Assembly (NCBI GenBank): GCA_021810565.1
Contig: JAJZIM010000003.1
Span: forward strand, 8,911-72,910
Length of the DNA stretch: 64,000 nt
Source of the DNA: Bacillota bacterium
Lineage (GTDB): Bacteria > Bacillota > Sulfobacillia > JAJZIM01
Reading direction: 5' to 3'
Under the pieces are notes generated by a model, which saw nothing but the letters and a program-made list of their open reading frames with translations, was not told the DNA's origin and made no database searches. Positions 1 through 57,196 of the stretch are shown here, one piece after another. The position numbers and the translations under genes are program-made. Within the stretch, counting starts at the first letter, position 1; every line of letters starts with the position of its first letter.

Positions 1-2649
1 GAGCAGGCGACGGTGTGGAACGCCTTCAACCAGATCCAGACTTACAAGAACGACATTCCATCCCTGTTTGCGTACAACGAGGTTTTGGTGATATCCGACG
101 GCCTGGAGGCGCGCGTCGGCTCCCTCACGGCCGACCGGGAGCGCTTCATGCCCTGGCGCACCATCGAGGGCGAGGACCTGGCGCCGCCGGGCCTGCCGCA
201 ATTGCAGGTGGTGATCCAGGGGGTTTTCGAGCGGAGCCGCTTCCTCGATCTGCTGAGGCATTTCATCGTATTCGAGACGGACGGGCCGGACGTCAGCAAG
301 AAGCTTGCCGGCTACCACCAGTTCCACGCCGTGAACCGGGCGGTGGAGGAGACGATCCGCGCGGCGCGGCTCCGTGCTGGGTACGGCATGGCGGCCGAGC
401 GTGAACCTGCGTACGAGGCGGGGGCCCGCATCGGCAGCGAGGCCGGAGACCGGCGCATCGGGGTGGTGTGGCACACCCAGGGGTCGGGCAAGAGCCTGAC
501 CATGGCCTTCTACGCCGGCAAGGTGGTGCAGCACCCGGCCATGGCGAACCCGACCATCGTGGTGCTCACCGACCGCAACGACTTGGACAGCCAACTATTC
601 GACAGCTTCGCCCTGGATCAGGAGCTCTTGCGGCAGGCGCCGGTGCGGGCGGAGAGCCGGGAGCACCTGCGCGTGCTCTTGCGGGTGGCTTCGGGCGGCG
701 TGGTGTTCACCACCATCCAGAAGTTCTTCCCGGAGGAGAAGGGGGCCCACCTGGCGGCGCTGTCCGAGCGGCGCAATATCGTGGTGATGGCCGACGAGGC
801 GCACCGGAGCCAGTACGACTTCATCGACGGGTTCGCCAGGCACATGCGTGACGCCCTGCCCAACGCCTCCTTCATCGGCTTCACCGGAACGCCCATCGAG
901 CTTGCCGACCGGAACACCCGTGCCGTCTTTGGCGACTACATCAGCGTGTACGATGTCCAGCGCGCCCAGGAGGACCATTTCACGGTGCCCATCTACTACG
1001 AGAGCCGCCTGGCGCAGTTGGCGCTGAGGGAGGAGGAGAAGCCGCGGGTGGACCGGGAGTTCGAGGAGGTTACGGAGCAGCAGGAGGAGACGGCCAAGGA
1101 GCGGCTGAAGAGCAGGTGGGCCGCCCTGGAGGCGCTGGTCGGCACCGACAAGCGCATAGACATGGTGACCCGGGACCTGGTGGAGCACTTCGAGCGGCGA
1201 TTGGAGGCCATGGACGGCAAGGCGATGGTGGTCTGCATGAGCCGGCGCATCTGTGTGCAGCTCTATGACGCCATCATGCGGCTGCGGCCGGAGTGGCACG
1301 ACGACGACGACCGCAGAGGCGTCGTCAAGGTGGTCATGACCGGCTCCGCCGACGATGCTGCGGAGTGGCAGCGGCACATCCGCAACAAGAAGCGGCGCGA
1401 GGAGTTGGCGAAGCGGTTCAAGGATTCGGAGGACCCCTTCAAGCTGGTTATCGTGCGGGACATGTGGCTCACCGGCTTCGATGCTCCGTGCCTGCACACC
1501 ATGTACGTGGACAAGCCCATGCGGGGCCACAACCTGATGCAGGCCATCGCCCGGGTAAACCGGGTGTTCCGGGACAAGCCCGGCGGCTTGGTGGTGGACT
1601 ACCTGGGGCTCGCCCCGCAACTGCAGGAGGCGGTGGCCGACTACACGGCGAGCGGCGGCAGGGGCAAGGCTGTGGTGAACCAGCAGGAAGCCGTGGCGAT
1701 CATGTTGGAACGGTACGAGGTCTGCCGGGACATGTTCCACGGCTTCGACTACTCAGGTTTCCTGACCGGCATGCCGGTGCAACGGCTGTCCATCCTGCCT
1801 GGTGCCCAGGAGCACATCCTGGCGCAGGAGAACGGCAGGGAGCGCTTCTTGACGGCGGTGTCCGCCCTGACCAAGGCGTTCGCCCTGGCGGTGCCGGAAG
1901 CGGCGACACTTCGCATCCGTGACGAGGTGGGCTTCTTCCAGACGGTGCGTGCGGCGTTGGCGAAGACGACCCGCGGCGCCGGCGCCGAGGAGGAGATGGA
2001 GCACGCCATCCGGCAGATCGTCTCGGGCGCGTTGGTTTCGGACAAGGTCATCGATGTCTTCGCCGCGGCGGGGCTCAAGAAGCCGGACATCTCGGTGCTG
2101 TCGGACGAATTCCTGGCCGAGGTGCGTGGCATGACACAGAAGAACCTGGCGGTGGAGCTTCTGCGGAAGCTTCTGAACGACGAGATCAGGATTCGCTCGC
2201 GCAAATTCCTGGTGCAGTCCCGCTCCTTCGCCGACAAGCTGGAGCAGGCCGTGCGGGCGTACCACAACCGGGCCATCAGTTCCGCCCAGGTGATCGAGGA
2301 GTTGGTGGCCATCGCGAAGGAGATGAGCGAGGCCAGGACAAGGGGCGAGAAGCTGTTCCTGAGCGACGACGAGCTGGCCTTCTACGATGCCCTGGAGGTC
2401 AACGACAGCGCGGTGAAGGTGCTGGGTGACGAGACGCTGCGGGCCATAGCCCGGGAACTGGTGGATACGGTGCGGCGGAACGTGACCATCGACTGGGCGG
2501 TGAAGCAGAGCGTGAAAGCCCGGCTGCGGGTCTTGACGAAGCGGATCCTGCGCAGGTACGGCTACCCGCCGGACAAGCAGGAGAAGGCCACGAAGACGGT
2601 GCTGGACCAGGCGGAGCTTCTGAGCGGGGAATGGATGCCTACCGAGTAA
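1..2649 (+). CDS. hsdR: Type I restriction enzyme R subunit (HsdR), 5'-truncated by window edge
   Basis: ORF 13..2649 has no upstream stop, so it continues off the window. Helicase motifs '[17 protein letters not shown]' (Walker A) and '[10 protein letters not shown]' (DEAH). C-terminal DUF3387-like tail '[32 protein letters not shown]'. Confidence 0.9.
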
Positions 2650-2673
2650 TGCCGGCAGAAGGGGGGCCAGCAA

Positions 2674-4830
2674 GTGAGGATCACCGGGATCCATGCGAGC
2701 AACTTTCTTTCCTTTGCTCCCGACAAGGAGGACGGCGGGCCGGGTGGCCTGCATCTGACAGGGCTTGTCCGCCCGCTCACCATCCTGGTCGGTCCGAATG
2801 GCGCGGGGAAAAGCAACGTGCTGCGCGTTGTGGAAATGATGATGGGTTTCTTGAAGGACAGACAACTGGACCAGGAAAGACTTGCGGAACTCAAAAGACT
2901 CTATCATCGGAATGCGAATTGTAGTCACATAGCCCTGAATCTTGATGTGATTTTTGATCGGCCAGAGGAGAGGGATCTGTTCGTACTCTTCTTCAGGAAT
3001 TTGTTGGTCGGACCGAGCAGCAAGACGACAAGCAATGCTTTTGGAGAACCAGGCCCAGCTGGAAAAGCCCTTATTCCAGACCGACTGGCGTCTCTTCAAG
3101 AACGGTTGAGCAATGATGTGGAAGAAAAAGATATAGAAGTATTATTTCAGGGACAGTTCAGATTGGAGGTCGATATTCGCAATCCACATAGTGATAGTTT
3201 AGCATTTATATGCCAAAACAGTCATGTGCCGCTTAGAGTGGACATACACCATCGTTATTGGGCAGGAATGATACGCTTACCTGCATCTGCGACCGAGGGT
3301 GCGGTTGAGAGACCGCTTCTTGAAGCTTGGATTATGGCTATTGACGCCAGCTGCCGGGAAAAGCTGGGGGAATATTTGACGGAGGAAACCGAAGTAAACA
3401 TGCCGGCTATTCCGCGATTTAGCTTCGCCAATCTAACAGCAAGCACGGGGATAATGCCTGTTCTATTGAACATCCAATTAGAGCAGCCTCAGCGTGTTTT
3501 GCCGATACGCATGGAGCTCAATCAACGATTGGGTAGAGAACCGACAAACACTGATTGGATGGGTTTAACCGAAGTATTTCGACGCTTGGTTCAGGGACAA
3601 GTGGTTTGCATAGATAACTGGTTTGTTGTTGACAAACCAGAACTCCCCGGTGCTGAAGATAGCCAAACGCTCTCAAGTGTACTATTATCTGAAGGAAATT
3701 TAGCAAGGTATCTGTTTGGGCTGAAGAACTCCCCCGACAAATCAGAGCGTGAGCTTTTAAAAGGCATGTTGGAAGATTATCGTGATTTAACTGGATCGCA
3801 GATTGACGCTGTTATGCACCATATACCAAGTAAACAGGTAATACGTCAACACAATCAAAAACCAGAAGTAGAACCCGGCAAGTATGTTATTTCGCTGATC
3901 ACTGATGAGGATATACCTCTCCGCTACAGCGGCTCGGGCAGGGCCCAAGCGGCCATGCTTTGCGCCCTGGCCCACCAGCACCAAGGGCGCGTGTTGATCC
4001 TGGATGAGCCCGAGACATTTCTTCATCCGACGCTGCAGTCCGTTTTTGCAGACCGCTTTATGAAGGGTGATGCTCAGTATATCGTCATAACACACTCGTC
4101 CAATATCATTCCAGCAGGCAAATTGGAAGTGGTCCGCCGTGTGTACAGCAAGCATGACAATGATTGGAGAATGTCCGAGATAACCCCCGCCATCGACGAT
4201 GACAAGTCCAAAGAACTCGCACTACGAAAGCGCGTCAGAAGGCCGGAGGAAGCTGCCTTTCTGTTTTCGAGATGCACGGTGTTTGTGGAGGGACCTAATG
4301 AGGCGGCCGCATTGCCGGTATGGTTTGATACATGGATAAAGGAAAAAGTCCATCTGAGCGCTGAAGCGTGCGGAGTTGTGTTTCAAGCTGCGAATGGCAA
4401 GAATGGCATTCTGCCGCTTCTTAAGATAGCAGACCTATTTGTAGTCAACTCCATTCCCCTATATGACGCTGATGTTTTAGGAACCGACAAGAAAGGAGAG
4501 AACGCAAATATTCTGAGGGGGTGGCAGGATTATGGCTTAATTTGCAGCAACGGAGGAAAGGTTGAGTTAGGTAAGGGGGCTTCGATAGCGCTATTCCCGA
4601 AGTGTACAAAATACCGAATATTTCTATGCGGCAAAAAGTTGACGGATGATTTTGAAAAACTGCCCGTTTGCAAGGACCACATTGAGGAGGCCAACAAAGA
4701 AACCGGTGGAGGCCCGTTGGCATACCGGTACATCGCGGAACATTATCCATGCCCCGATGAATTTGTGCCGCTGTTTGACAAAGCACTGGAGCTGGCAATG
4801 GATGCCCCTGGCCGGAGAATGGACAAGTAA
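2674..4830 (+). CDS. OLD-family ABC ATPase + Toprim nuclease (class-1 OLD or fused AriA/AriB PARIS-like)
   Basis: GTG start 24 nt after hsdR stop, preceded by GAAGGGGGG. Walker A 'ILVGPNGAGKSN', 'YSGSGRAQAAM', Walker B 'VLILDEPETFLHP', 'IVITHS'. C-terminal Toprim-like 'TVFVEGPNEAAALP' and 'LYDADVLGTD'. Middle of the gene is visibly AT-richer. Confidence 0.8.
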   Translation: MRITGIHASNFLSFAPDKEDGGPGGLHLTGLVRPLTILVGPNGAGKSNVLRVVEMMMGFLKDRQLDQERLAELKRLYHRNANCSHIALNLDVIFDRPEERDLFVLFFRNLLVGPSSKTTSNAFGEPGPAGKALIPDRLASLQERLSNDVEEKDIEVLFQGQFRLEVDIRNPHSDSLAFICQNSHVPLRVDIHHRYWAGMIRLPASATEGAVERPLLEAWIMAIDASCREKLGEYLTEETEVNMPAIPRFSFANLTASTGIMPVLLNIQLEQPQRVLPIRMELNQRLGREPTNTDWMGLTEVFRRLVQGQVVCIDNWFVVDKPELPGAEDSQTLSSVLLSEGNLARYLFGLKNSPDKSERELLKGMLEDYRDLTGSQIDAVMHHIPSKQVIRQHNQKPEVEPGKYVISLITDEDIPLRYSGSGRAQAAMLCALAHQHQGRVLILDEPETFLHPTLQSVFADRFMKGDAQYIVITHSSNIIPAGKLEVVRRVYSKHDNDWRMSEITPAIDDDKSKELALRKRVRRPEEAAFLFSRCTVFVEGPNEAAALPVWFDTWIKEKVHLSAEACGVVFQAANGKNGILPLLKIADLFVVNSIPLYDADVLGTDKKGENANILRGWQDYGLICSNGGKVELGKGASIALFPKCTKYRIFLCGKKLTDDFEKLPVCKDHIEEANKETGGGPLAYRYIAEHYPCPDEFVPLFDKALELAMDAPGRRMDK

Positions 4831-4875: not shown

Positions 4876-5109
4876 GTGTCTTCCTCGGAAGGCGGCCCTC
4901 CATTTGCGGGAGTGGTGCCGATGAGCCGCGATATCCTGGAGGCCGTGGAGACCCGCCTGGTGCTCGACTGGCACCGCAAGCGGGACCTTCAGCGGGACAT
5001 CCGCTCCGCCGTGAAGCACAGGCTGACGGACGCCGGCTGCCCGAGGGACAAACTTTCGCCCCTTGCCGATGAGATCATGAACCTGGCCCTCCGCCGGATC
5101 AAAGGGTGA
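4876..5109 (+). CDS. small ORF resembling an HsdR C-terminal (DUF3387-like) segment; possible gene remnant
   Basis: 'RLVLDWHRKRDLQRDIRSAVKHRLTDAGCPRDKLSPLADEIMNLALRR' parallels the hsdR tail '[43 protein letters not shown]'. It overlaps the DUF45 gene by 11 nt. Confidence 0.3.
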   Translation: MSSSEGGPPFAGVVPMSRDILEAVETRLVLDWHRKRDLQRDIRSAVKHRLTDAGCPRDKLSPLADEIMNLALRRIKG

Positions 5110-5803
5110 GGAACGGCCCGTTGCGCCGCAGCCAGTCCCGGCGCTGCTTTTGGTCCGGCAGCACGCACTCCACGGCATGCCAGAAGTCTTGGGAATGGGC
5201 CCGCACCTTGAGGTGGCAAAGCTCATGCACCACCAGGTAGTCCACCACGGACAGGGGGACCATGATGATGCGCCAGTTGAGGTAGATGGCCCCGTCACGG
5301 GCGCAGCTCCCCCAGCGCCGCTCCTGATGTTTGACCACCACGCGGGAGGGGGCGACGCCCATCCTGGCTGAGTAGAGGTCCACCCGCTCCGGCAGCCGCT
5401 CCCTGGCGCGTTCCTCGAACCACTTGACGAGAGCCGCCCGCACAGCGGATGCGTCGTCTTTTCCCGGCAGGGTGACGATGATCCGGTCTCCGCGCAGGGC
5501 GACCGACAACCTGTCGTCCTCCCGCACCTTCAGCCGATAGCGCCTGCCCAGGTAGGGGAACGACTCCCCGCTGACGAACTCCTTGGGTGCGGGTTGCGGT
5601 GCCGGCGGCGCCTCGCGCAGTTTGCGGATGATCCACGGCGCCTTGCGCAGAAGAATGCCTTCCAGCGCGGCGGAGGAAACCCCCTGCGGGGCGGCTACGA
5701 TCACCCCCCTGGCCGGCTCCACGGTGATGGATACCGTGGAGCGGCGGGGGCTCAGCCTGAGATCGTAGGCGATGGTCCTGGAGCCGAAGGACAGGACGGG
5801 CAT
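5099..5803 (-). CDS. DUF45/YgjP-like HExxH zinc metallopeptidase (M48-related), a common Type I R-M neighbour
   Basis: 'VVDYLVVHELCHLKVRAHSQDFW' HExxH motif. RBS GGAGGTG 5 nt upstream of the ATG. 234 aa. Confidence 0.8.
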   Translation of the reverse strand: MPVLSFGSRTIAYDLRLSPRRSTVSITVEPARGVIVAAPQGVSSAALEGILLRKAPWIIRKLREAPPAPQPAPKEFVSGESFPYLGRRYRLKVREDDRLSVALRGDRIIVTLPGKDDASAVRAALVKWFEERARERLPERVDLYSARMGVAPSRVVVKHQERRWGSCARDGAIYLNWRIIMVPLSVVDYLVVHELCHLKVRAHSQDFWHAVECVLPDQKQRRDWLRRNGPFLTL

Positions 5804-5943: not shown

Positions 5944-7014
5944 ATGAAAGCACCATCGGTAAACGGCGGCGAAGACCGCTCAAAGTGGCTCTTCGGTTTC
6001 CTAGGCGGCCTGATCGGCGGCATCGGCGCCGTGGCTGTCGCCGTCGTCCTGACGCCATATCTTCGCGGAACCACGGGCGCGGCGACTACCGGAGGGGCTG
6101 CGGGACTGGTGGCGGCAGTCTTCGGCGGGCTTGCCGCGCTGCTCGCGGTGGGCATAGCGGTGGTGGTGGCGATCCAGTGGATATTTTTAGACGAACGCGT
6201 CAAGGTAGCGATAACACGGCAGTCGGAGAAAATTGCCAGGGATATGGATGCGAAGGTGAATAGCGCAGTGCGTGGTATGGGAGAGTTCGTGTTGGCTTGG
6301 CAAGGTTTAGTACAGACGGAATGGGATGAATCTGGAATAAAAAAAGCGCTACAGCATTATCCACCCATTCCAAACGCCGCGGCTTTAACGGCTATGCATT
6401 TCATAAAGTTGGCTTATGACTACAAGAGACACATAAAGCAAGTCCAAAAGGGACAATATGCAGAAATTGCAACGAACTTAGCTGAATACTGGGCGGACGA
6501 AGCCATTCACTCGGTGGACAGCCACGATCCCGGGTATCCCGAGTATGTCAAGGCCTGTGTCCTGTCGCTGCGCAAAGAGCCTACGTCGGCAATGAACTAC
6601 CTGCGCCAAGCATTCAAGAAAAATCCCGGCTACACGGAGGAAATCATGTCTGACGAAGAATTATGGAACATAATTTTCGGCATGACACGTGGGGAGCAGG
6701 ACATAATAAAGCGCGTACTATCGCTATTCCGGCTGGAGCTACCAATAGACTCGGAGATACGCAATCACGCGGAGAACAGGGATCAGATGCAACGCTCGTA
6801 TTACTATGCCGTAAATAAGGAGACGGGCGATTCAGGAACAATATATATAGAGGGGATTCCTTCCGCAAACAAGTGGTCATATTTGGGATTCACTATTGAT
6901 GACCAATATAATAGCGACAATGTTGACGAGGTGTTGTCATATGCTTCAGATAAGTACATTATCACGAGAATAAAGCCGCACGAGGAATATGCCGCTCTGC
7001 ATTACGGCAAATAA
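5944..7014 (+). CDS. membrane-anchored protein of unknown function (two Gly/Ala-rich TM helices + AT-rich C-terminal domain)
   Basis: Internal ATG 'MKAPSVNGGEDRSKWLFGFLGGLIGGIGAVAVAVVLTPYL...GLVAAVFGGLAALLAVGIAVVVAIQWIF', followed by a ~270 aa hydrophilic domain encoded by AT-rich DNA. I recognised no family motif. Confidence 0.55.
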   Translation: MKAPSVNGGEDRSKWLFGFLGGLIGGIGAVAVAVVLTPYLRGTTGAATTGGAAGLVAAVFGGLAALLAVGIAVVVAIQWIFLDERVKVAITRQSEKIARDMDAKVNSAVRGMGEFVLAWQGLVQTEWDESGIKKALQHYPPIPNAAALTAMHFIKLAYDYKRHIKQVQKGQYAEIATNLAEYWADEAIHSVDSHDPGYPEYVKACVLSLRKEPTSAMNYLRQAFKKNPGYTEEIMSDEELWNIIFGMTRGEQDIIKRVLSLFRLELPIDSEIRNHAENRDQMQRSYYYAVNKETGDSGTIYIEGIPSANKWSYLGFTIDDQYNSDNVDEVLSYASDKYIITRIKPHEEYAALHYGK

Positions 7015-7164: not shown

Positions 7165-8472
7165 TTAACGCGACGCCCTGAACACCCCCGTCCAGACACC
7201 CATGCCCGCCGGCATGGTGACGGGCGCGCCGTCCACCGTCAGGCCGGCGGCAGCCGGGGCGCCGAGCTTCAGGTAGAGTTGGCCCGTGGACTTCCAGGTG
7301 GAGATGTTCCCGGGATACCGCATTCCCGCGAACAGCGTGGTTCCGTTGCTGGCGACGTCTACCCAGCACTGCCCGGTGAAGCTGACCGTGGCGGCCACGC
7401 TCCCGGCGGAAACGTCGTAGTCGTAGACGCCGTTCGACGCGGACACGAGGCGCACCGCGGGAGCCTTCGGCGGCGCGGCCGTGGTCGGGTGCCCCGGCCT
7501 GTCCATGATTACGACGACGGCGACCGGCACCAGGACCACGATGGCGACGATGGGCAGTGCTCCCCGCAGGCGGGAAGGGACATGATGCGCGGGCGCGGCC
7601 GCCGGGACGGACGGTGTTGCGGTGGGTGGCGGGGGAGGGGGCGCCGCGGGCGATGGCGGCGCGGCCGCAGCCGGCGCGCCCGCGCGTCGTTCCGGGGGGA
7701 GCACGAAGCGCCGGAACACGTCGGCCAACTGTTCCGGCGTGACCCCGGCCGGCAGGACGCCCGGCGTGTTCTGGATGACCAGGGGCGCAACGTCGGCCTT
7801 CACCACGGGCGCGGCGTCCTGCCCATCGATCACGGCGGCCTTGTGGGCCATGGCCACCAGGGCGTGGACCGGAACCTGGGCGAAGCCGCGCTGGTCCAGC
7901 ACGCGGCGGACGACATCCGCGTTGCGCAGCGCCTGCGCCACGCCGCTTGCCGTGCCCTCCACCACGCCGCGCTTCTCCCGCGACCATCCGGCGGGGGAGA
8001 CGCGGATGCGCCCAGCCCAGTTCTTCACCTCCACCACGTGCACGCCGTTGGGCCCGAAGACCAGGGCGTCGATCTCCACGCCGACGGGCCCCGCGTGGAC
8101 GATGCTGGCCGGCAGCGTGACGAATTCCCGCGGCAGGAAAGAGAGGTGGTGCAGCGTCTCCTCTTCGCCCTGCCGCCTTGGCGGCAATTTCGGACTGTTC
8201 CGGAGTTTCAATGATTGTGCCGGCTGACGGTTCAGAAAACCACCTGTGGCCGCAACGGAGACACGTCCACTGCTTGGGATCGACGAACAGATAGCATTGT
8301 TTTTGTCGTGCCAACTCAACCACGGTACGCCTGGTATTTGTACTTCCGCATGCTGGGCAGGCAATATCTTGATATTGCAGATGACCTCCAGCGGATTCAT
8401 TGACTTCCCTGGAAATCCACTGCAGGCGATGGCGGATCCAATAGCAGGGCAAACCATAATCCGCCGCTCCAT
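7165..8472 (-). CDS. NERD-domain protein with central TM segment and RodZ-C/DUF4115-like C-terminus
   Basis: 'VGVEIDALVFGPNGVHVVEVKNWAGRIRV' is a NERD core. Pro-rich linker, TM 'LPIVAIVVLVPVAVVVIM', and C-terminal 'VSFTGQCWVDVASNGTTLFAGM'. Start is uncertain (M at 8472 or 8400). Cys pairs lie near the N-terminus. Confidence 0.65.
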   Translation of the reverse strand: MERRIMVCPAIGSAIACSGFPGKSMNPLEVICNIKILPAQHAEVQIPGVPWLSWHDKNNAICSSIPSSGRVSVAATGGFLNRQPAQSLKLRNSPKLPPRRQGEEETLHHLSFLPREFVTLPASIVHAGPVGVEIDALVFGPNGVHVVEVKNWAGRIRVSPAGWSREKRGVVEGTASGVAQALRNADVVRRVLDQRGFAQVPVHALVAMAHKAAVIDGQDAAPVVKADVAPLVIQNTPGVLPAGVTPEQLADVFRRFVLPPERRAGAPAAAAPPSPAAPPPPPPTATPSVPAAAPAHHVPSRLRGALPIVAIVVLVPVAVVVIMDRPGHPTTAAPPKAPAVRLVSASNGVYDYDVSAGSVAATVSFTGQCWVDVASNGTTLFAGMRYPGNISTWKSTGQLYLKLGAPAAAGLTVDGAPVTMPAGMGVWTGVFRASR

Positions 8473-8710: not shown

Positions 8711-8926
8711 ATGCCGCAAGAAAAGCCCCCGTCCCTGGCGGAAGCTCCCGAGTTCCTGCGGATCGAGGAGGCCGCGGCGATCCTGCGGGTGAGCCGCAGC
8801 ACGGTCCACGCGGCGGTGCGCCGGGGCATGATCCCCGTCGTCGACTTCGGCCGCAAGCTGCGCATCCCGCGCCTTGCCCTGGAGCGCATGGCCGGGTTGC
8901 ACCGCGACGGCAAGGAGGTGGACTGA
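8711..8926 (+). CDS. excisionase-family HTH DNA-binding protein
   Basis: 'LRIEEAAAILRVSRSTVHAAVRRGMIPVVDFGRKLRIP' is an HTH_17/Xis-like motif. Confidence 0.7.
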   Translation: MPQEKPPSLAEAPEFLRIEEAAAILRVSRSTVHAAVRRGMIPVVDFGRKLRIPRLALERMAGLHRDGKEVD

Positions 8927-8927
8927 G

Positions 8928-9245
8928 GTGCCGATCGGCAACAAAACGTACCGGCGGTTCCTGGCGGAAACCGATCCCGAAGCGTTGGCGCGGCTTGACG
9001 CCGGGCGGTGCGTCAACTGCGGCATGCCCGTCACGCCGGATCATTTCCGCGGCTGGCCGGAGGTGTTCGCCCGCGAGTACCCCATCAGCGGCCTCTGCCC
9101 CGCCTGCCAGGTGGACGTGTTCGCGCCCGCGCCCGACGAGGAGTGCCGGTGGCGGACCACACCGGGCTTCTGCGCCCGGTGCGCCGCGATCCGGGGCTTC
9201 GACCCCGCGGACTGCCCCTCCCGGCGGGAGGGCGATCCCCGATGA
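8928..9245 (+). CDS. Cys-rich hypothetical protein (mobile-element passenger)
   Basis: GTG 2 nt after the previous stop. Motifs 'CVNCGMPVT', 'CPACQ' and 'CARCAA' suggest zinc-ribbon-like CxxC pairs. Its end overlaps the next ATG (ATGA). Confidence 0.45.
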   Translation: MPIGNKTYRRFLAETDPEALARLDAGRCVNCGMPVTPDHFRGWPEVFAREYPISGLCPACQVDVFAPAPDEECRWRTTPGFCARCAAIRGFDPADCPSRREGDPR

Positions 9246-9580
9246 CGCCGCGATTGGAGGACCTGCCCGACGTGCTGACCGTGCGGGAGGTGGCCGACGT
9301 CCTGCGGGTTAGCCAGTCCACGGTCTACGAGCTGGTGCGCCGCCGGCGGCTGCGCGCCGTCCGGTGCGGCATCGGCCGGCAGGGGGGCGTGCGCATCACG
9401 CAGTCCGTCCTGCGGGAGTACCTGGGACTGCCCATACCCCCGCGCACGGCGGCGGACGCGGCGGCCGCCGATCGCGGCAAGCTGGTGTTCCTGCCGACCC
9501 GCGGGGAGGAGCCGCCGGGCGCCGCGGCGAAGTCTCCCGGCAGCCGAAGCCCCGCCCGGCCGGGGAGGGGAAGCCGGTGA
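9242..9580 (+). CDS. excisionase-family HTH (HTH_17) DNA-binding protein
   Basis: 'LTVREVADVLRVSQSTVYELVRRRRLRAVRCG'. Confidence 0.7.
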   Translation: MTPRLEDLPDVLTVREVADVLRVSQSTVYELVRRRRLRAVRCGIGRQGGVRITQSVLREYLGLPIPPRTAADAAAADRGKLVFLPTRGEEPPGAAAKSPGSRSPARPGRGSR

Positions 9581-10692
9581 GGGGAACGATCCGAAAGGTT
9601 CCGGGAAAGCGGGGCGTCAGCTATGAGGTGAGGCTGGACTACCCCAGAGGCCCCGACGGGAGGCGCCGCCAGGCGTGCCGCCGTTATAAAGGACGGCGCG
9701 AGGCGGAGGACGCCCTGGCGCACATGCTGGCGGAGGCGCGGGACGGCGTGCCGATCGCCACGGAGCGGCTGACGGTGAACCAATACCTGGATCAATACCT
9801 GGAGGCCGTGCGGGGAACCGTGCGGGAGTCCACCCTGCGGGGCAAGCGGCGGATGCTGTCCTATTGGCGGCCGTTGCTTGGCGCCGCGCCCCTGGCGAAA
9901 CTGCGCCCGATGGACGTGCAGCGCGCGGTCGGCGCCCTGCCGGAGCGGCTTGCCATGGCGACGCGCACGGAGGCGTTCCGCGTCCTGCGCACGGCGCTTC
10001 GCCAGGCGGTCCGCTGGGGCATGCTGGCGCGGGACCCCACCGACGGCGTGCGGCCGCCGAAGGGCCCCGTGCGGGAGATGCGCGTGTGGTCGAGGGACGA
10101 GGCGGCCGCCTTCCTCCGGAGCGCGAAGGGGCGCAGGCTGTACCCCCTCTTCGCGCTGGCGCTGGCCACCGGGATGCGGGAGGGCGAACTGCTGGCCCTG
10201 CGATGGGACGACGTGGACCTGGCGGCGCGGGAGGTGTCCGTGCTGCACACCCTGCACTACCCGGACGCCGGCCCGTGGAGCCTGGCGGAACTCAAGACGC
10301 GAAGCAGCCGCCGCAAGGTGGCCGTGAGCCGGGAGGTGGCGGACATGCTTCGCGCCTGGCGCAGGCGCCAGAACGCCGAGCGGCTGGCGGCGGGCCCGGC
10401 GTGGGAGGACGACGGCCTGGTCTTCTGCGGGCCCCGGGGGCGCCCCCTGCGGCCTTCCGACGCCATCCACGCCTTCCACCGCGCGGCCAAGGCGGCCGGC
10501 CTGCCGCGCATCCGGTTCCACGACCTGCGGCACACCCACGCGACCGACCTCCTGGCGCGGGGCGTTCCCGCGCCGGAGGTGGCGGCGCGGCTGGGACACT
10601 CCAACCCAGCCGTCACCATGAGGGTCTACGCCCACGCCACCGCCGAGACGCGCGACGCCGCGGTGCGCGCCCTGGACGGACTCCCGTGGTAG
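9577..10692 (+). CDS. tyrosine-type site-specific recombinase (phage integrase family)
   Basis: GTG after GGGGAGGGGA. Catalytic region 'RFHDLRHTHATDLLARG' and 'VTMRVYAHAT' (R..H..R..Y). N-terminal SAM-like core-binding domain. Confidence 0.85.
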   Translation: MRGTIRKVPGKRGVSYEVRLDYPRGPDGRRRQACRRYKGRREAEDALAHMLAEARDGVPIATERLTVNQYLDQYLEAVRGTVRESTLRGKRRMLSYWRPLLGAAPLAKLRPMDVQRAVGALPERLAMATRTEAFRVLRTALRQAVRWGMLARDPTDGVRPPKGPVREMRVWSRDEAAAFLRSAKGRRLYPLFALALATGMREGELLALRWDDVDLAAREVSVLHTLHYPDAGPWSLAELKTRSSRRKVAVSREVADMLRAWRRRQNAERLAAGPAWEDDGLVFCGPRGRPLRPSDAIHAFHRAAKAAGLPRIRFHDLRHTHATDLLARGVPAPEVAARLGHSNPAVTMRVYAHATAETRDAAVRALDGLPW

Positions 10693-56925: not shown

Positions 56926-57196
56926 CTCGTTTCGACCTCCTCGCGGGTCCGCCGCGACGGTCGCAGGGCCCGGCAACCGGCTGTCCTGGCCGCGCCGCGG
57001 CTTTAGACCCATGGCTTTGCGTCCCCGCCTTTCGGCGGGTTTGCCCTTGGCAGGCTCACCTGATATTTCGTGCGCGACCGGCGAATTTGGGTGGGTGGCG
57101 CCGGGACGGTCGAAATCCGATCTTGACAAAAACCGCGGCGCAGGGCAGAATAAGCGGTAGCATACCGCGTAGGGTATATGAAGGAGGATTCTCGGG

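What the first reader, a model, noticed from the sequence alone, without database searches (positions are those of the whole stretch)
2674..4830. OLD-family ATPase/Toprim nuclease co-transcribed with hsdR: a PARIS-like backup to Type I restriction?
The ORF starts with GTG 24 nt after the hsdR stop on the same strand, behind a G-rich RBS. No terminator is visible between the two genes, so they are probably one transcription unit. The N-terminal ~500 aa is an ABC/SMC-like ATPase with Walker A 'LVGPNGAGKSN', 'YSGSGRAQ', Walker B 'VLILDEPETF' and His 'IVITHS'. The C-terminal ~200 aa carries Toprim-like acidic blocks 'VFVEGPNE' and 'LYDADVLGTD'. At 718 aa it is clearly longer than Gabija GajA or class-1 OLD proteins, because a ~250 aa insert sits between Walker A and the signature block. 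That size and layout are also compatible with a fused AriA-AriB (PARIS) protein. PARIS is known to trigger when phage DNA mimics such as Ocr inhibit Type I R-M, so a PARIS/OLD-like gene wired into the hsdR operon would be a coherent 'anti-anti-restriction' arrangement. Nucleotides ~2900-4830 are visibly AT-richer than the ~70% GC flanks, arguing for horizontal insertion into a pre-existing R-M locus.
Basis: partly seen in the sequence, partly recalled or inferred. Interest (0 to 1): 0.75.

Follow-up and report, generated by a model that had tools for sequence, protein, structure and literature searches.

The report
Stand-alone OLD nuclease gene after hsdR
The gene is a real but ordinary member of the OLD family of ATP-driven anti-phage nucleases. 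It was acquired horizontally and sits at the tail of a Type I restriction operon in a Thermaerobacter defence island. It is not PARIS-like, and nothing in the sequence shows that it works together with the restriction enzyme.

Summary
Window 2674-4830 (+) is an intact 718-aa ORF with a GTG start 24 nt after the hsdR stop. All quoted ATPase and Toprim motifs are present, and GC is clearly lower (0.49 against 0.66 for hsdR).

Profile, sequence and structure comparisons all place it in the OLD family. It is closest to the Class 1 enzyme of Thermus scotoductus (PDB 6p74). All ATPase and two-metal nuclease residues are conserved. No helicase, retron or AriB partner lies nearby.

The PARIS reading fails. 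The C-terminal domain matches only OLD/GajA Toprim models, with no DUF4435 or AriB hit. The fused AriAB model covers only part of the ATPase.

The length comes from about 130-155 extra residues in the ATPase inserts. This is shared by a rare subfamily of 650-750 aa proteins.

None of five independent homolog contexts with readable flanks contains hsd genes. In the sister Thermaerobacter lineage the gene is 5'-truncated.

Related hsd operons carry many different accessory defence genes. Embedding of ABC-ATPase/Toprim defences in Type I R-M is already published (Payne et al. 2024; PrrC).

Verdict: a new member of a known kind, of low to moderate interest. The backup idea is untested and unlikely, at roughly 10%.

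The parts
13..2649 (+). hsdR, the Type I restriction endonuclease subunit R. The window start cuts its 5' end; the full gene is 1047 aa in L009.
   Evidence: Pfam T1RH-like_C 6.3e-133, SWI2_SNF2 1.7e-77, ResIII and HSDR_N. PADLOC REase_I 3e-299. TIGR00348 3e-153. The full operon hsdM-hsdS-DUF4357-hsdR is seen in L009.
2650..2673 (+). 24-nt hsdR-OLD spacer with a G-rich ribosome-binding site (GAAGGGGGG) 7 nt before the GTG.
   Evidence: Sequence read directly. No promoter- or terminator-like site here. No stable hairpin, z +1.25.
2674..4830 (+). OLD-family nuclease gene of Class 1 type: 718 aa, 80.5 kDa, GTG start.
2791..2817 (+). Walker A / P-loop GPNGAGKSN (residues 40-48; K46).
   Evidence: Located. 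G40, N42, G43, G45 and K46 are invariant in 25 homologs. Aligns with the TsOLD P-loop.
2962..3798 (+). Enlarged, mostly helical inserts of the ABC ATPase (about residues 97-158 and 215-375). They include the predicted dimerisation region and account for the extra length.
   Evidence: Secondary structure of the AF2 model. No Pfam match for residues 93-375. Walker A to Walker B is 398 aa against 242 aa in TsOLD. The assignment as dimerisation domain is by analogy with TsOLD and is an inference.
3925..4098 (+). Signature-like block YSGSGRAQ (418-425), Walker B D444/E445, D-loop H451 and H-loop H474.
   Evidence: for positions. One search aligns D444/E445 with TsOLD E276/E277 and H451 with H283. 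H474 is matched to the TsOLD H-loop H310 by the shared THS motif. The function of the Ts residues is given. G420, G422, D444 and E445 are invariant.
4261..4662 (+). OLD-type Toprim nuclease domain. Metal A ligands are E539, D598 and D600; metal B ligands are E543, D659 and E661.
   Evidence: Pfam OLD-like_TOPRIM at residues 530-600. One search aligns E539/E543 with TsOLD E377/D381 and D598/D600 with D431/D433. The catalytic roles are given. D598 and E661 are invariant in A1. The D659/E661 equivalence to Ts S478/E480 and P2 D541/E543 is by motif position and is an inference.
2850..4830 (.). Low-GC tract (0.42-0.55) covering all but the first ~180 nt of the OLD gene.
4921..5109 (+). 62-aa relic of the C-terminal end of a T1RH-like_C protein (another hsdR or a PDC-S15-type gene). 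It marks a recombination scar between OLD and ygjP.
   Evidence: Pfam T1RH-like_C positions 268-321 of 329, E 1.8e-5, just below cut-off. PADLOC PDC-S15 C-end, E 5e-5. No DNA or close protein similarity to the resident hsdR 3' end. Partly deleted in the sister lineage.
5099..5803 (-). Convergent YgjP-like metallopeptidase gene, which bounds the OLD insertion on the right.
   Evidence: Pfam YgjP-like 1.6e-63. 94% nt identity to the sister lineage against 82% for OLD. dS 0.16 against 0.49.

Best explanation
Window 2674-4830 encodes a catalytically intact, stand-alone (Class 1-type) OLD-family nuclease from a rare long subfamily.

Likely mechanism, by analogy with TsOLD, P2 Old and V. cholerae OLD (inferred):
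- It probably forms a homodimer through the enlarged helical insert of its ABC ATPase.
- ATP binding and hydrolysis at the SMC/Rad50-like heads probably license the C-terminal Toprim domain.
- The Toprim domain would cut nucleic acid by two-metal catalysis, using E539/D598/D600 and E543/D659/E661.
- The result would be to stop phage replication, or to kill the infected cell.
- The substrate cannot be read from sequence. Vc OLD and TsOLD act on DNA; P2 Old acts on tRNA.

Likely history and context:
- The gene is a horizontally acquired, low-GC cassette.
- It landed in the variable slot between hsdR and a convergent ygjP-like gene, in a Thermaerobacter integrase-bounded defence island. It left a relic of an earlier T1RH-like_C gene.
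- It is probably read through from the hsdMS-DUF4357-hsdR operon (inferred).
- It most likely acts as an independent second layer of defence whose linkage to the R-M genes is genetic (co-transfer, co-expression) rather than mechanistic.
For: Family and class:
- Pfam AAA_21, AAA_15 and OLD-like_TOPRIM above cut-off.
- PADLOC GajA and Old models span the ATPase C-part plus Toprim.
- The ATPase and metal A/B residues checked are present and conserved.
- The tail after the metal-B glutamate is 57 aa, close to 48 aa in TsOLD.
- No UvrD-like helicase, reverse transcriptase or AriB is in the neighbourhood.

Functional gene: intact ORF, with dN/dS 0.31 against the sister copy.

Foreign origin and slot:
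- GC 0.49 against 0.66-0.68 for its neighbours.
- A T1RH-like_C relic lies downstream.
- dS is three times that of ygjP.
- The neighbouring NERD gene is swapped for another block in the sister lineage.

Independence from R-M:
- Homologs sit alone among nSTAND, NACHT, integrase/AbiEii, AICE-like or IS contexts, with no hsd genes.
- Related hsd operons carry many unrelated accessory genes: Fic, SIR2, FRG, PD-(D/E)XK and AriAB-like.

Operon: 24-nt spacer, RBS, no terminator.

Defence role of Class 1 OLD: papers read.
Against: - No expression or phenotype data exist. Co-transcription is inferred only from spacing.
- Defence activity, oligomeric state and substrate are extrapolated from relatives that are only 14-20% identical over the structure-based alignments.
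- The sister lineage carries a 5'-truncated copy lacking Walker A, so the gene is dispensable.
- The survey of homolog contexts is small: five informative loci and four short contigs. It could miss a recurrent hsd link.
- One review states that Class 1 OLD genes are not usually found near other defence genes. This locus, and several homolog loci, depart from that.
Confidence: 0.75

Rival explanations
1. Functional guard of the Type I enzyme, like PrrC or in the spirit of PARIS. The OLD protein would be held inactive by, or would monitor, the HsdMSR complex. It would fire when a phage anti-restriction protein (Ocr, ArdA, Stp-like) disables restriction.
For: - Tight same-strand linkage with hsdR, a 24-nt spacer and no terminator.
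- Precedents exist: PrrC/EcoprrI, Ocr-triggered PARIS and Gabija, and Old triggered by RecBCD inhibitors. The published hypothesis is that embedded ABC-ATPase defences back up the surrounding system.
- A different ABC-ATPase/Toprim gene (AriAB-like) sits after a related hsdR in Croceicoccus.
Against: - Adjacency is not conserved in any of five independent homolog contexts with readable flanks (64/66).
- The gene lies after hsdR, in a slot that elsewhere holds unrelated genes or IS elements.
- Compositional and dS mosaicism indicate a recent cassette insertion rather than co-evolution.
- There is no sequence similarity to PrrC, and no AriB-type domain.
Confidence: 0.12
2. A fused AriA-AriB (PARIS, Class 4 OLD) protein.
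Against: - These hits cover only residues ~374-481 of the ATPase.
- The C-terminal domain matches only OLD-like_TOPRIM, GajA and Old, with no DUF4435 or AriB hit at E<=10.
- A true AriAB-like protein (L023) behaves differently in the same test.
Confidence: 0.03
3. A decaying passenger: an inactive or silenced remnant of a mobile cassette with no current function.
For: In the sister Thermaerobacter lineage the gene has lost its first ~209 codons, including Walker A. It sits in a recombination scar. Homologs are very rare.
Against: In this lineage the 718-codon frame is intact, with all catalytic residues and a good RBS. dN/dS is 0.31. Identical copies are found in at least 13 contigs from several samples.
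Confidence: 0.08
4. An orphan Gabija GajA (Class 2 OLD) that has lost GajB.
For: The best PADLOC models are GajA (8.5e-21). GajA structures rank high.
Against: No UvrD-like helicase gene is nearby, here or next to any homolog. TsOLD (Class 1) scores far better than GajA with the family profile, 1.7e-29 against 3e-14. The C-terminal tail is short, like Class 1.
Confidence: 0.02

Closest known systems
Class 1 OLD family nucleases (Thermus scotoductus OLD, PDB 6p74; phage P2 Old; Vibrio cholerae OLD; E. coli YbjD)
   Same: Single polypeptide with an N-terminal ABC ATPase carrying an inserted helical domain and a C-terminal OLD-type Toprim. It has the same Walker A/B, D-loop His and H-loop His, and the same metal A (E, DxD) and metal B ligands. 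There is no partner gene. It is the best sequence and structure match.
   Different: It is 718 aa against the 528-aa 6p74 chain and ~586 aa for P2 Old (own knowledge), because the ATPase inserts are ~130-155 aa larger. It is only 14-20% identical to TsOLD over the structure-based alignments. It sits directly after hsdR in a defence island, whereas a review describes Class 1 genes as not proximal to other defence genes. Substrate and trigger are unknown.
Gabija GajA (Class 2 OLD)
   Same: Same two-domain architecture, and the top PADLOC models.
   Different: No GajB helicase is present. The family-profile score is weaker than for TsOLD. The tail after the Toprim core is short, 57 aa.
PARIS AriA/AriB (Class 4 OLD), including fused AriAB
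   Same: An ABC ATPase of the same broad clade. The conceptual link to anti-restriction sensing is shared.
   Different: The nuclease domain is OLD-type Toprim, not DUF4435/AriB. The AriAB model covers only residues 434-481.
PrrC anticodon nuclease embedded in the EcoprrI hsd operon
   Same: An ABC-ATPase-containing nuclease genetically wired into a Type I R-M operon. It is the classic precedent for a latent backup triggered by an anti-restriction factor.
   Different: PrrC lies between hsd genes, has a different nuclease domain, and is almost always found embedded. This OLD lies after hsdR, and its homologs are not hsd-linked.
HEC-04 and other ABC-ATPase/TOPRIM defences found by 'guilt by embedding' (Payne et al. 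2024, bioRxiv 10.1101/2024.01.29.577857)
   Same: An ATPase fused to a TOPRIM with an OLD-like metal site, located within or next to Hma, BREX or Type I R-M operons. The backup hypothesis is the same. The DUF4357 gene in this very operon is their candidate PDC-S14.
   Different: HEC models are not among the best PADLOC hits for this protein, apart from weak HEC-01A P-loop matches. This gene is terminal in the operon rather than nested.

Membership tests
OLD family nucleases | N-terminal ABC-type ATPase with Walker A, Walker B, D-loop and H-loop | tested here: met
OLD family nucleases | C-terminal OLD-type Toprim domain with metal A (E + DxD) and metal B acidic ligands | tested here: met
   PF20469, 30.5 bits against a 23.2 cut-off. 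E539, D598, D600 and E543 align with TsOLD E377, D431, D433 and D381. The D659-x-E661 motif is conserved.
OLD family nucleases | Helical dimerisation domain inserted in the ATPase; homodimer or tetramer | tested here: inconclusive
   The AF2 monomer model shows a helical insert at about residues 215-375, where TsOLD has its dimerisation domain. The oligomeric state was not modelled.
Class 1 OLD | Stand-alone gene with no adjacent UvrD/PcrA/Rep-like helicase, retron RT/ncRNA or AriB | tested here: met
   Neighbours are hsdR, a T1RH-like_C relic, ygjP-like, a hypothetical gene and a NERD gene. The same absence is seen around homologs.
Class 1 OLD | Toprim lacks the Class 2 insert helix and C-terminal helical domain | tested here: inconclusive
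   The model has a low-confidence loop at 620-649 and a 57-aa helical tail, against 48 aa in TsOLD. No explicit superposition with a Class 2 C-terminal region was made.
Gabija (Class 2 OLD) | GajB UvrD-like helicase encoded next to GajA | tested here: not met
   No helicase gene other than hsdR lies within 10 kb.
PARIS (AriA/AriB, Class 4 OLD) | DUF4435/AriB-type Toprim nuclease, separate or fused | tested here: not met
   The C-terminal 219 aa give no DUF4435 or AriB hit at E<=10. The AriAB model aligns only to 434-481. The positive control L023 aligns over 315-562.
PARIS (AriA/AriB, Class 4 OLD) | Activation by anti-restriction proteins such as Ocr; tRNA cleavage | not testable with these tools
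   Needs phage or Ocr expression assays.
PrrC-type R-M-embedded latent nuclease | Recurrent embedding in hsd operons across homologs | tested here: not met
   0 of 5 independent homolog contexts with readable flanks have hsd genes (64/66). Four further contigs are too short to judge.
PrrC-type R-M-embedded latent nuclease | Physical masking by the Hsd complex and release by an anti-restriction factor | not testable with these tools
   Requires biochemistry and genetics.
Type I R-M operon (context) | hsdM, hsdS and hsdR present and intact on one strand | tested here: met
   L009, the same contig extended upstream, carries hsdM 580 aa, hsdS 455 aa, DUF4357 291 aa and hsdR 1047 aa.

The most novel reading that the evidence does not exclude
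The OLD nuclease is a dedicated guard of the adjacent Type I enzyme. It would be co-transcribed with hsdR, kept silent by the intact HsdMSR complex or by ongoing restriction, and unleashed when a phage DNA mimic or other anti-restriction factor blocks it. That would be the first Class 1 OLD with a defined R-M-linked trigger, and a thermophilic analogue of PrrC/EcoprrI that uses a Toprim nuclease.
Probability: 0.1. Interest if true: 0.6.

Novelty: new member of a known kind. Interest (0 to 1): 0.27.

Why it matters
The locus adds a divergent, long-insert Class 1 OLD nuclease from a thermophilic Firmicute (Thermaerobacter) to a family whose stand-alone members have only recently been shown to defend against phage. 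A thermostable enzyme could be useful for structural work on the still unresolved ATP-engaged state.

The locus also illustrates how the 3' flank of hsdR acts as a swap site for accessory defence genes. Here that site holds OLD and a relic of an earlier gene; in Croceicoccus it holds an AriAB-like gene.

It does not open a new question. Embedding of ABC-ATPase/Toprim defences in Type I R-M operons, and the backup hypothesis, are already published.

Tried and rejected
- Recent duplication of the hsdR 3' end as the origin of the downstream 62-aa ORF: rejected. There is no DNA similarity and only family-level protein similarity. It is a relic of a different T1RH-like_C gene, either hsdR or PDC-S15-type.
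- The 662-aa gene call in other assemblies as evidence of a damaged 5' end: rejected, because the DNA is identical.
It was uninformative for context statistics.
- Clade-specific DNA pattern (FVEGPx[DE]AxALPxWF) on metagenome contigs: one locus only. It had IS elements and a DUF2971 gene, but no hsd genes.
- tblastn against plasmid and phage collections: no close homolog. There were two weak ATPase-only plasmid hits and none in phages.
- Search for att-like direct repeats bounding the island: none convincing.
- The DNA upstream of the truncated sister copy matches nothing in the window or in L009/L018, so the deletion or insertion that truncated it could not be characterised.
- Residues 93-375 (the inserts) have no Pfam match.
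Full report
**Observation.**
- The upstream ORF ends with TAA at 2647-2649. The 24-nt spacer carries GAAGGGGGG 7 nt before the GTG.
- The upstream gene is HsdR (T1RH-like_C 6e-133, SWI2_SNF2 2e-77, TIGR00348 3e-153, PADLOC REase_I 3e-299). The window begins inside it.
- The same JGI contig extended upstream (L009) shows the full operon: hsdM, hsdS, a DUF4357 gene, hsdR (1047 aa), then this ORF.
- The GTG start is validated by homologs that begin with the same MR(I/L)T..A.NFLSF strand. A 662-aa call of the same gene in other assemblies is only a different start choice on identical DNA.
- GC falls to 0.42-0.55 from ~2850 to ~4800, against 0.62-0.69 on either side. By gene it is OLD 0.49, hsdR 0.66 and ygjP 0.68.
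- No promoter-like or terminator-like site lies on the + strand at the junction, and the junction RNA has no stable hairpin (z +1.25). Co-transcription is therefore plausible but not demonstrated.

**What the protein is.** All lines of evidence place it in the OLD family, closest to the stand-alone Class 1 enzymes.
- Pfam gives AAA_21 (2.3e-16), AAA_15 (7e-15) and OLD-like_TOPRIM (5.4e-7, above cut-off).
- In PADLOC, the GajA and Old models span both the C-terminal half of the ATPase and the Toprim.
- A profile of 12 homologs finds the Class 1 enzyme of Thermus scotoductus (6p74) at 1.7e-29. That is far ahead of PtuA, GajA (~3e-14), retron Eco8 OLD and AriA (1.6e-9, ATPase only).
- An AlphaFold2 model (pLDDT 80.9, pTM 0.83) has 6p74 as its top Foldseek hit (8.7e-12).
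- Aligned with or matched to TsOLD, the functional residues described by Schiltz et al. 2020 are all present:
  - Walker A K46, Walker B D444/E445, D-loop H451 and H-loop H474.
  - Metal A ligands E539, D598 and D600.
  - Metal B ligands E543 and, by motif position, D659/E661.
  - Most of these are invariant or nearly so among homologs.
- No UvrD-like helicase, reverse transcriptase or AriB gene is nearby. By the published context-based scheme it is therefore Class 1.

**Length.**
- The distance from Walker A to Walker B is 398 residues here, against 242 in TsOLD. About 130-155 residues are extra.
- In the model they lie in two helical inserts, about 97-158 and 215-375, which have no Pfam match.
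- The size is not a one-off. An exhaustive search of 1.84 billion representatives finds 40 clusters at E<=1e-30 and 288 at E<=1e-10, most of the best hits being 650-750 aa.
- The subfamily is nevertheless rare. There are 14 word-indexed hits among 5.8 billion proteins, nothing close in plasmid or phage collections, and one hit for a clade-specific pattern in JGI metagenomes.

**PARIS test.**
- The C-terminal 219 residues searched alone match only OLD-like_TOPRIM in Pfam and only GajA/Old in PADLOC. There is no DUF4435, AriB or RloB hit even at E<=10.
- The fused AriAB model aligns only to residues 434-481.
- The test can detect a real case. A 684-aa AAA_21 protein encoded after a related hsdR (55% identity) on a Croceicoccus marinus plasmid matches the AriAB model across residues 315-562.
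- The window protein is thus OLD-type, not PARIS-type.

**Is the link to hsdR more than an accident of insertion?** The evidence points to a mosaic, fast-turnover defence island rather than a co-evolved pair.
- I looked at every homolog context I could fetch. None has hsd genes.
  - L002: next to an nSTAND NTPase.
  - L003/L004: integrase, FRG, AbiEii.
  - L006: NACHT, DUF4238.
  - L013: a Streptomyces FtsK/SpoIIIE element.
  - L020: IS3/IS110 and an overlapping DUF2971 gene.
  - Four short contigs were uninformative.
- The organism is a Thermaerobacter. Identical copies of the hsd-OLD locus occur in at least 13 contigs.
- In the sister Thermaerobacter lineage the homologous gene (82% nt identity) is cut off at window position ~3300. 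It has lost Walker A, and unrelated DNA lies upstream where all contigs end.
- dN/dS between the two copies is 0.31, so the gene has been under purifying selection.
- Its dS (0.49) is three times that of the adjacent ygjP (0.16). The other low-GC gene of the island behaves like OLD, with dS 0.57.
- Downstream of OLD lies a 62-codon relic of the C-terminal end of a T1RH-like_C protein (Pfam positions 268-321 of 329, E 1.8e-5; PADLOC PDC-S15 C-end, 5e-5). It overlaps the convergent ygjP-like gene and is unrelated at the DNA level to the resident hsdR end.
- The hsd operon itself is compositionally mosaic, with hsdS at 0.50 and DUF4357 at 0.58. The neighbouring NERD gene is replaced by a different five-gene block in the sister lineage.
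- An HTH_17/integrase module bounds the island on the right.

**Comparison with what is known.**
- Plasmid-borne operons with the same hsdR family (53-57% identity) embed Fic, PD-(D/E)XK, SIR2, FRG and nucleotidyltransferase genes. After hsdR they are followed by IS elements, HNH, hypothetical genes or the AriAB-like gene.
- This is the phenomenon described by Payne et al. (bioRxiv 10.1101/2024.01.29.577857):
  - Type I R-M, BREX, DISARM and Hma systems frequently carry embedded defence genes.
  - Diverse ABC ATPases paired or fused with TOPRIM are prominent among them, and HEC-04 was validated.
  - The authors explicitly propose that such genes back up the surrounding system when anti-defence proteins such as Ocr or Stp act, citing PrrC/EcoprrI.
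- The DUF4357 gene in this very operon is their candidate PDC-S14 (5e-90).
- TgvAB embedded in the V. cholerae Type I operon is another example.
- Class 1 OLD enzymes have now been shown to defend. V. cholerae OLD nicks DNA, P2 Old severs tRNA anticodon stems after ATP hydrolysis, and E. coli YbjD gives phage phenotypes.
- The one mild departure is that a 2023 review describes Class 1 OLD genes as not lying near other defence genes. This locus, and several homolog loci, clearly lie in defence or mobile contexts.

**Mechanism.**
- Shown: an intact ORF encoding an OLD-type ATPase-Toprim with all catalytic residues; tight same-strand linkage to hsdR; foreign composition; no conserved hsd linkage among homologs.
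- Inferred: dimerisation through the enlarged insert; ATP-controlled two-metal cleavage of DNA or tRNA; a phage-defence role; read-through transcription from the hsd operon; action independent of the R-M enzyme.

I put the identity as an OLD-family nuclease at about 0.95. The whole best explanation, an independent stand-alone defence cassette co-expressed with hsdR, is at about 0.75. A PrrC-like guard relationship with the Type I enzyme is at about 0.1, and PARIS membership at 0.03 or less.

**Verdict.** This is a real feature and was correctly spotted. It is correctly assigned to the OLD family and wrongly likened to PARIS. The functional story attached to it is a published general hypothesis, and this locus does not specifically support it. 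It is a new member of a known kind, with interest of about 0.27.

Noticed in passing
window 4921-5109 (+): A 62-aa ORF that is a relic of the last ~55 residues of a T1RH-like_C protein (hsdR or PADLOC candidate PDC-S15). It overlaps the 3' end of the convergent ygjP-like gene and is partly deleted in the sister lineage. It marks an earlier occupant of the slot now holding OLD.
   Followed up: partly
window 5944-7014 (+): A 356-aa protein with two N-terminal transmembrane helices and an unknown soluble domain. It forms a second low-GC patch (0.51). There is no Pfam or PADLOC match. Its dS to the sister lineage is 0.57, like OLD. It may be another uncharacterised defence cargo gene.
   Followed up: partly
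window 7165-8400 (-): A NERD plus RodZ_C protein of 411 aa. In the sister Thermaerobacter contigs (L001, L014-L016) this position holds a different block instead: DUF1257, DUF2997, Fer4_12, a 921-956 aa double-AAA ATPase and a 639-aa protein. It is a variable defence slot.
   Followed up: partly
L009 5961-6836 (upstream of the window start): A DUF4357 gene nested between hsdS and hsdR matches PADLOC phage-defence candidate PDC-S14 (E 5e-90). The operon already carries one embedded candidate besides OLD. hsdS is also low-GC (0.50).
   Followed up: partly
L009 1873-1935 (upstream of hsdM, outside the window): Three tandem 21-nt repeats (AAAGTGACGTGGGCTTCCAAC and variants) in the region upstream of hsdM. 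They may be an operator or iteron.
   Followed up: no
window 8711-10692 (+): Two HTH_17 (excisionase-like) genes and a tyrosine integrase bound the hsd-OLD island on the right, followed by a molybdopterin oxidoreductase gene. No tRNA gene was found in the window, and no convincing att repeats were found in L009.
   Followed up: partly
window 56969-57055 (-): A c-di-GMP-I riboswitch aptamer (Rfam RF01051, 77.7 bits, full length).
   Followed up: no
L023 10265-12319 (Croceicoccus marinus plasmid pCME4A9II): A 684-aa AAA_21 ATPase about 570 nt after a related hsdR matches the fused AriAB (PARIS) model across both ATPase and nuclease parts. This is a genuine PARIS-like gene in the post-hsdR position in another phylum.
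   Followed up: partly
L020 5048-5860: In a low-GC metagenome contig, the OLD homolog (686 aa) is followed by a DUF2971 gene whose start overlaps the OLD stop. This may be a two-gene variant of the subfamily.
   Followed up: no
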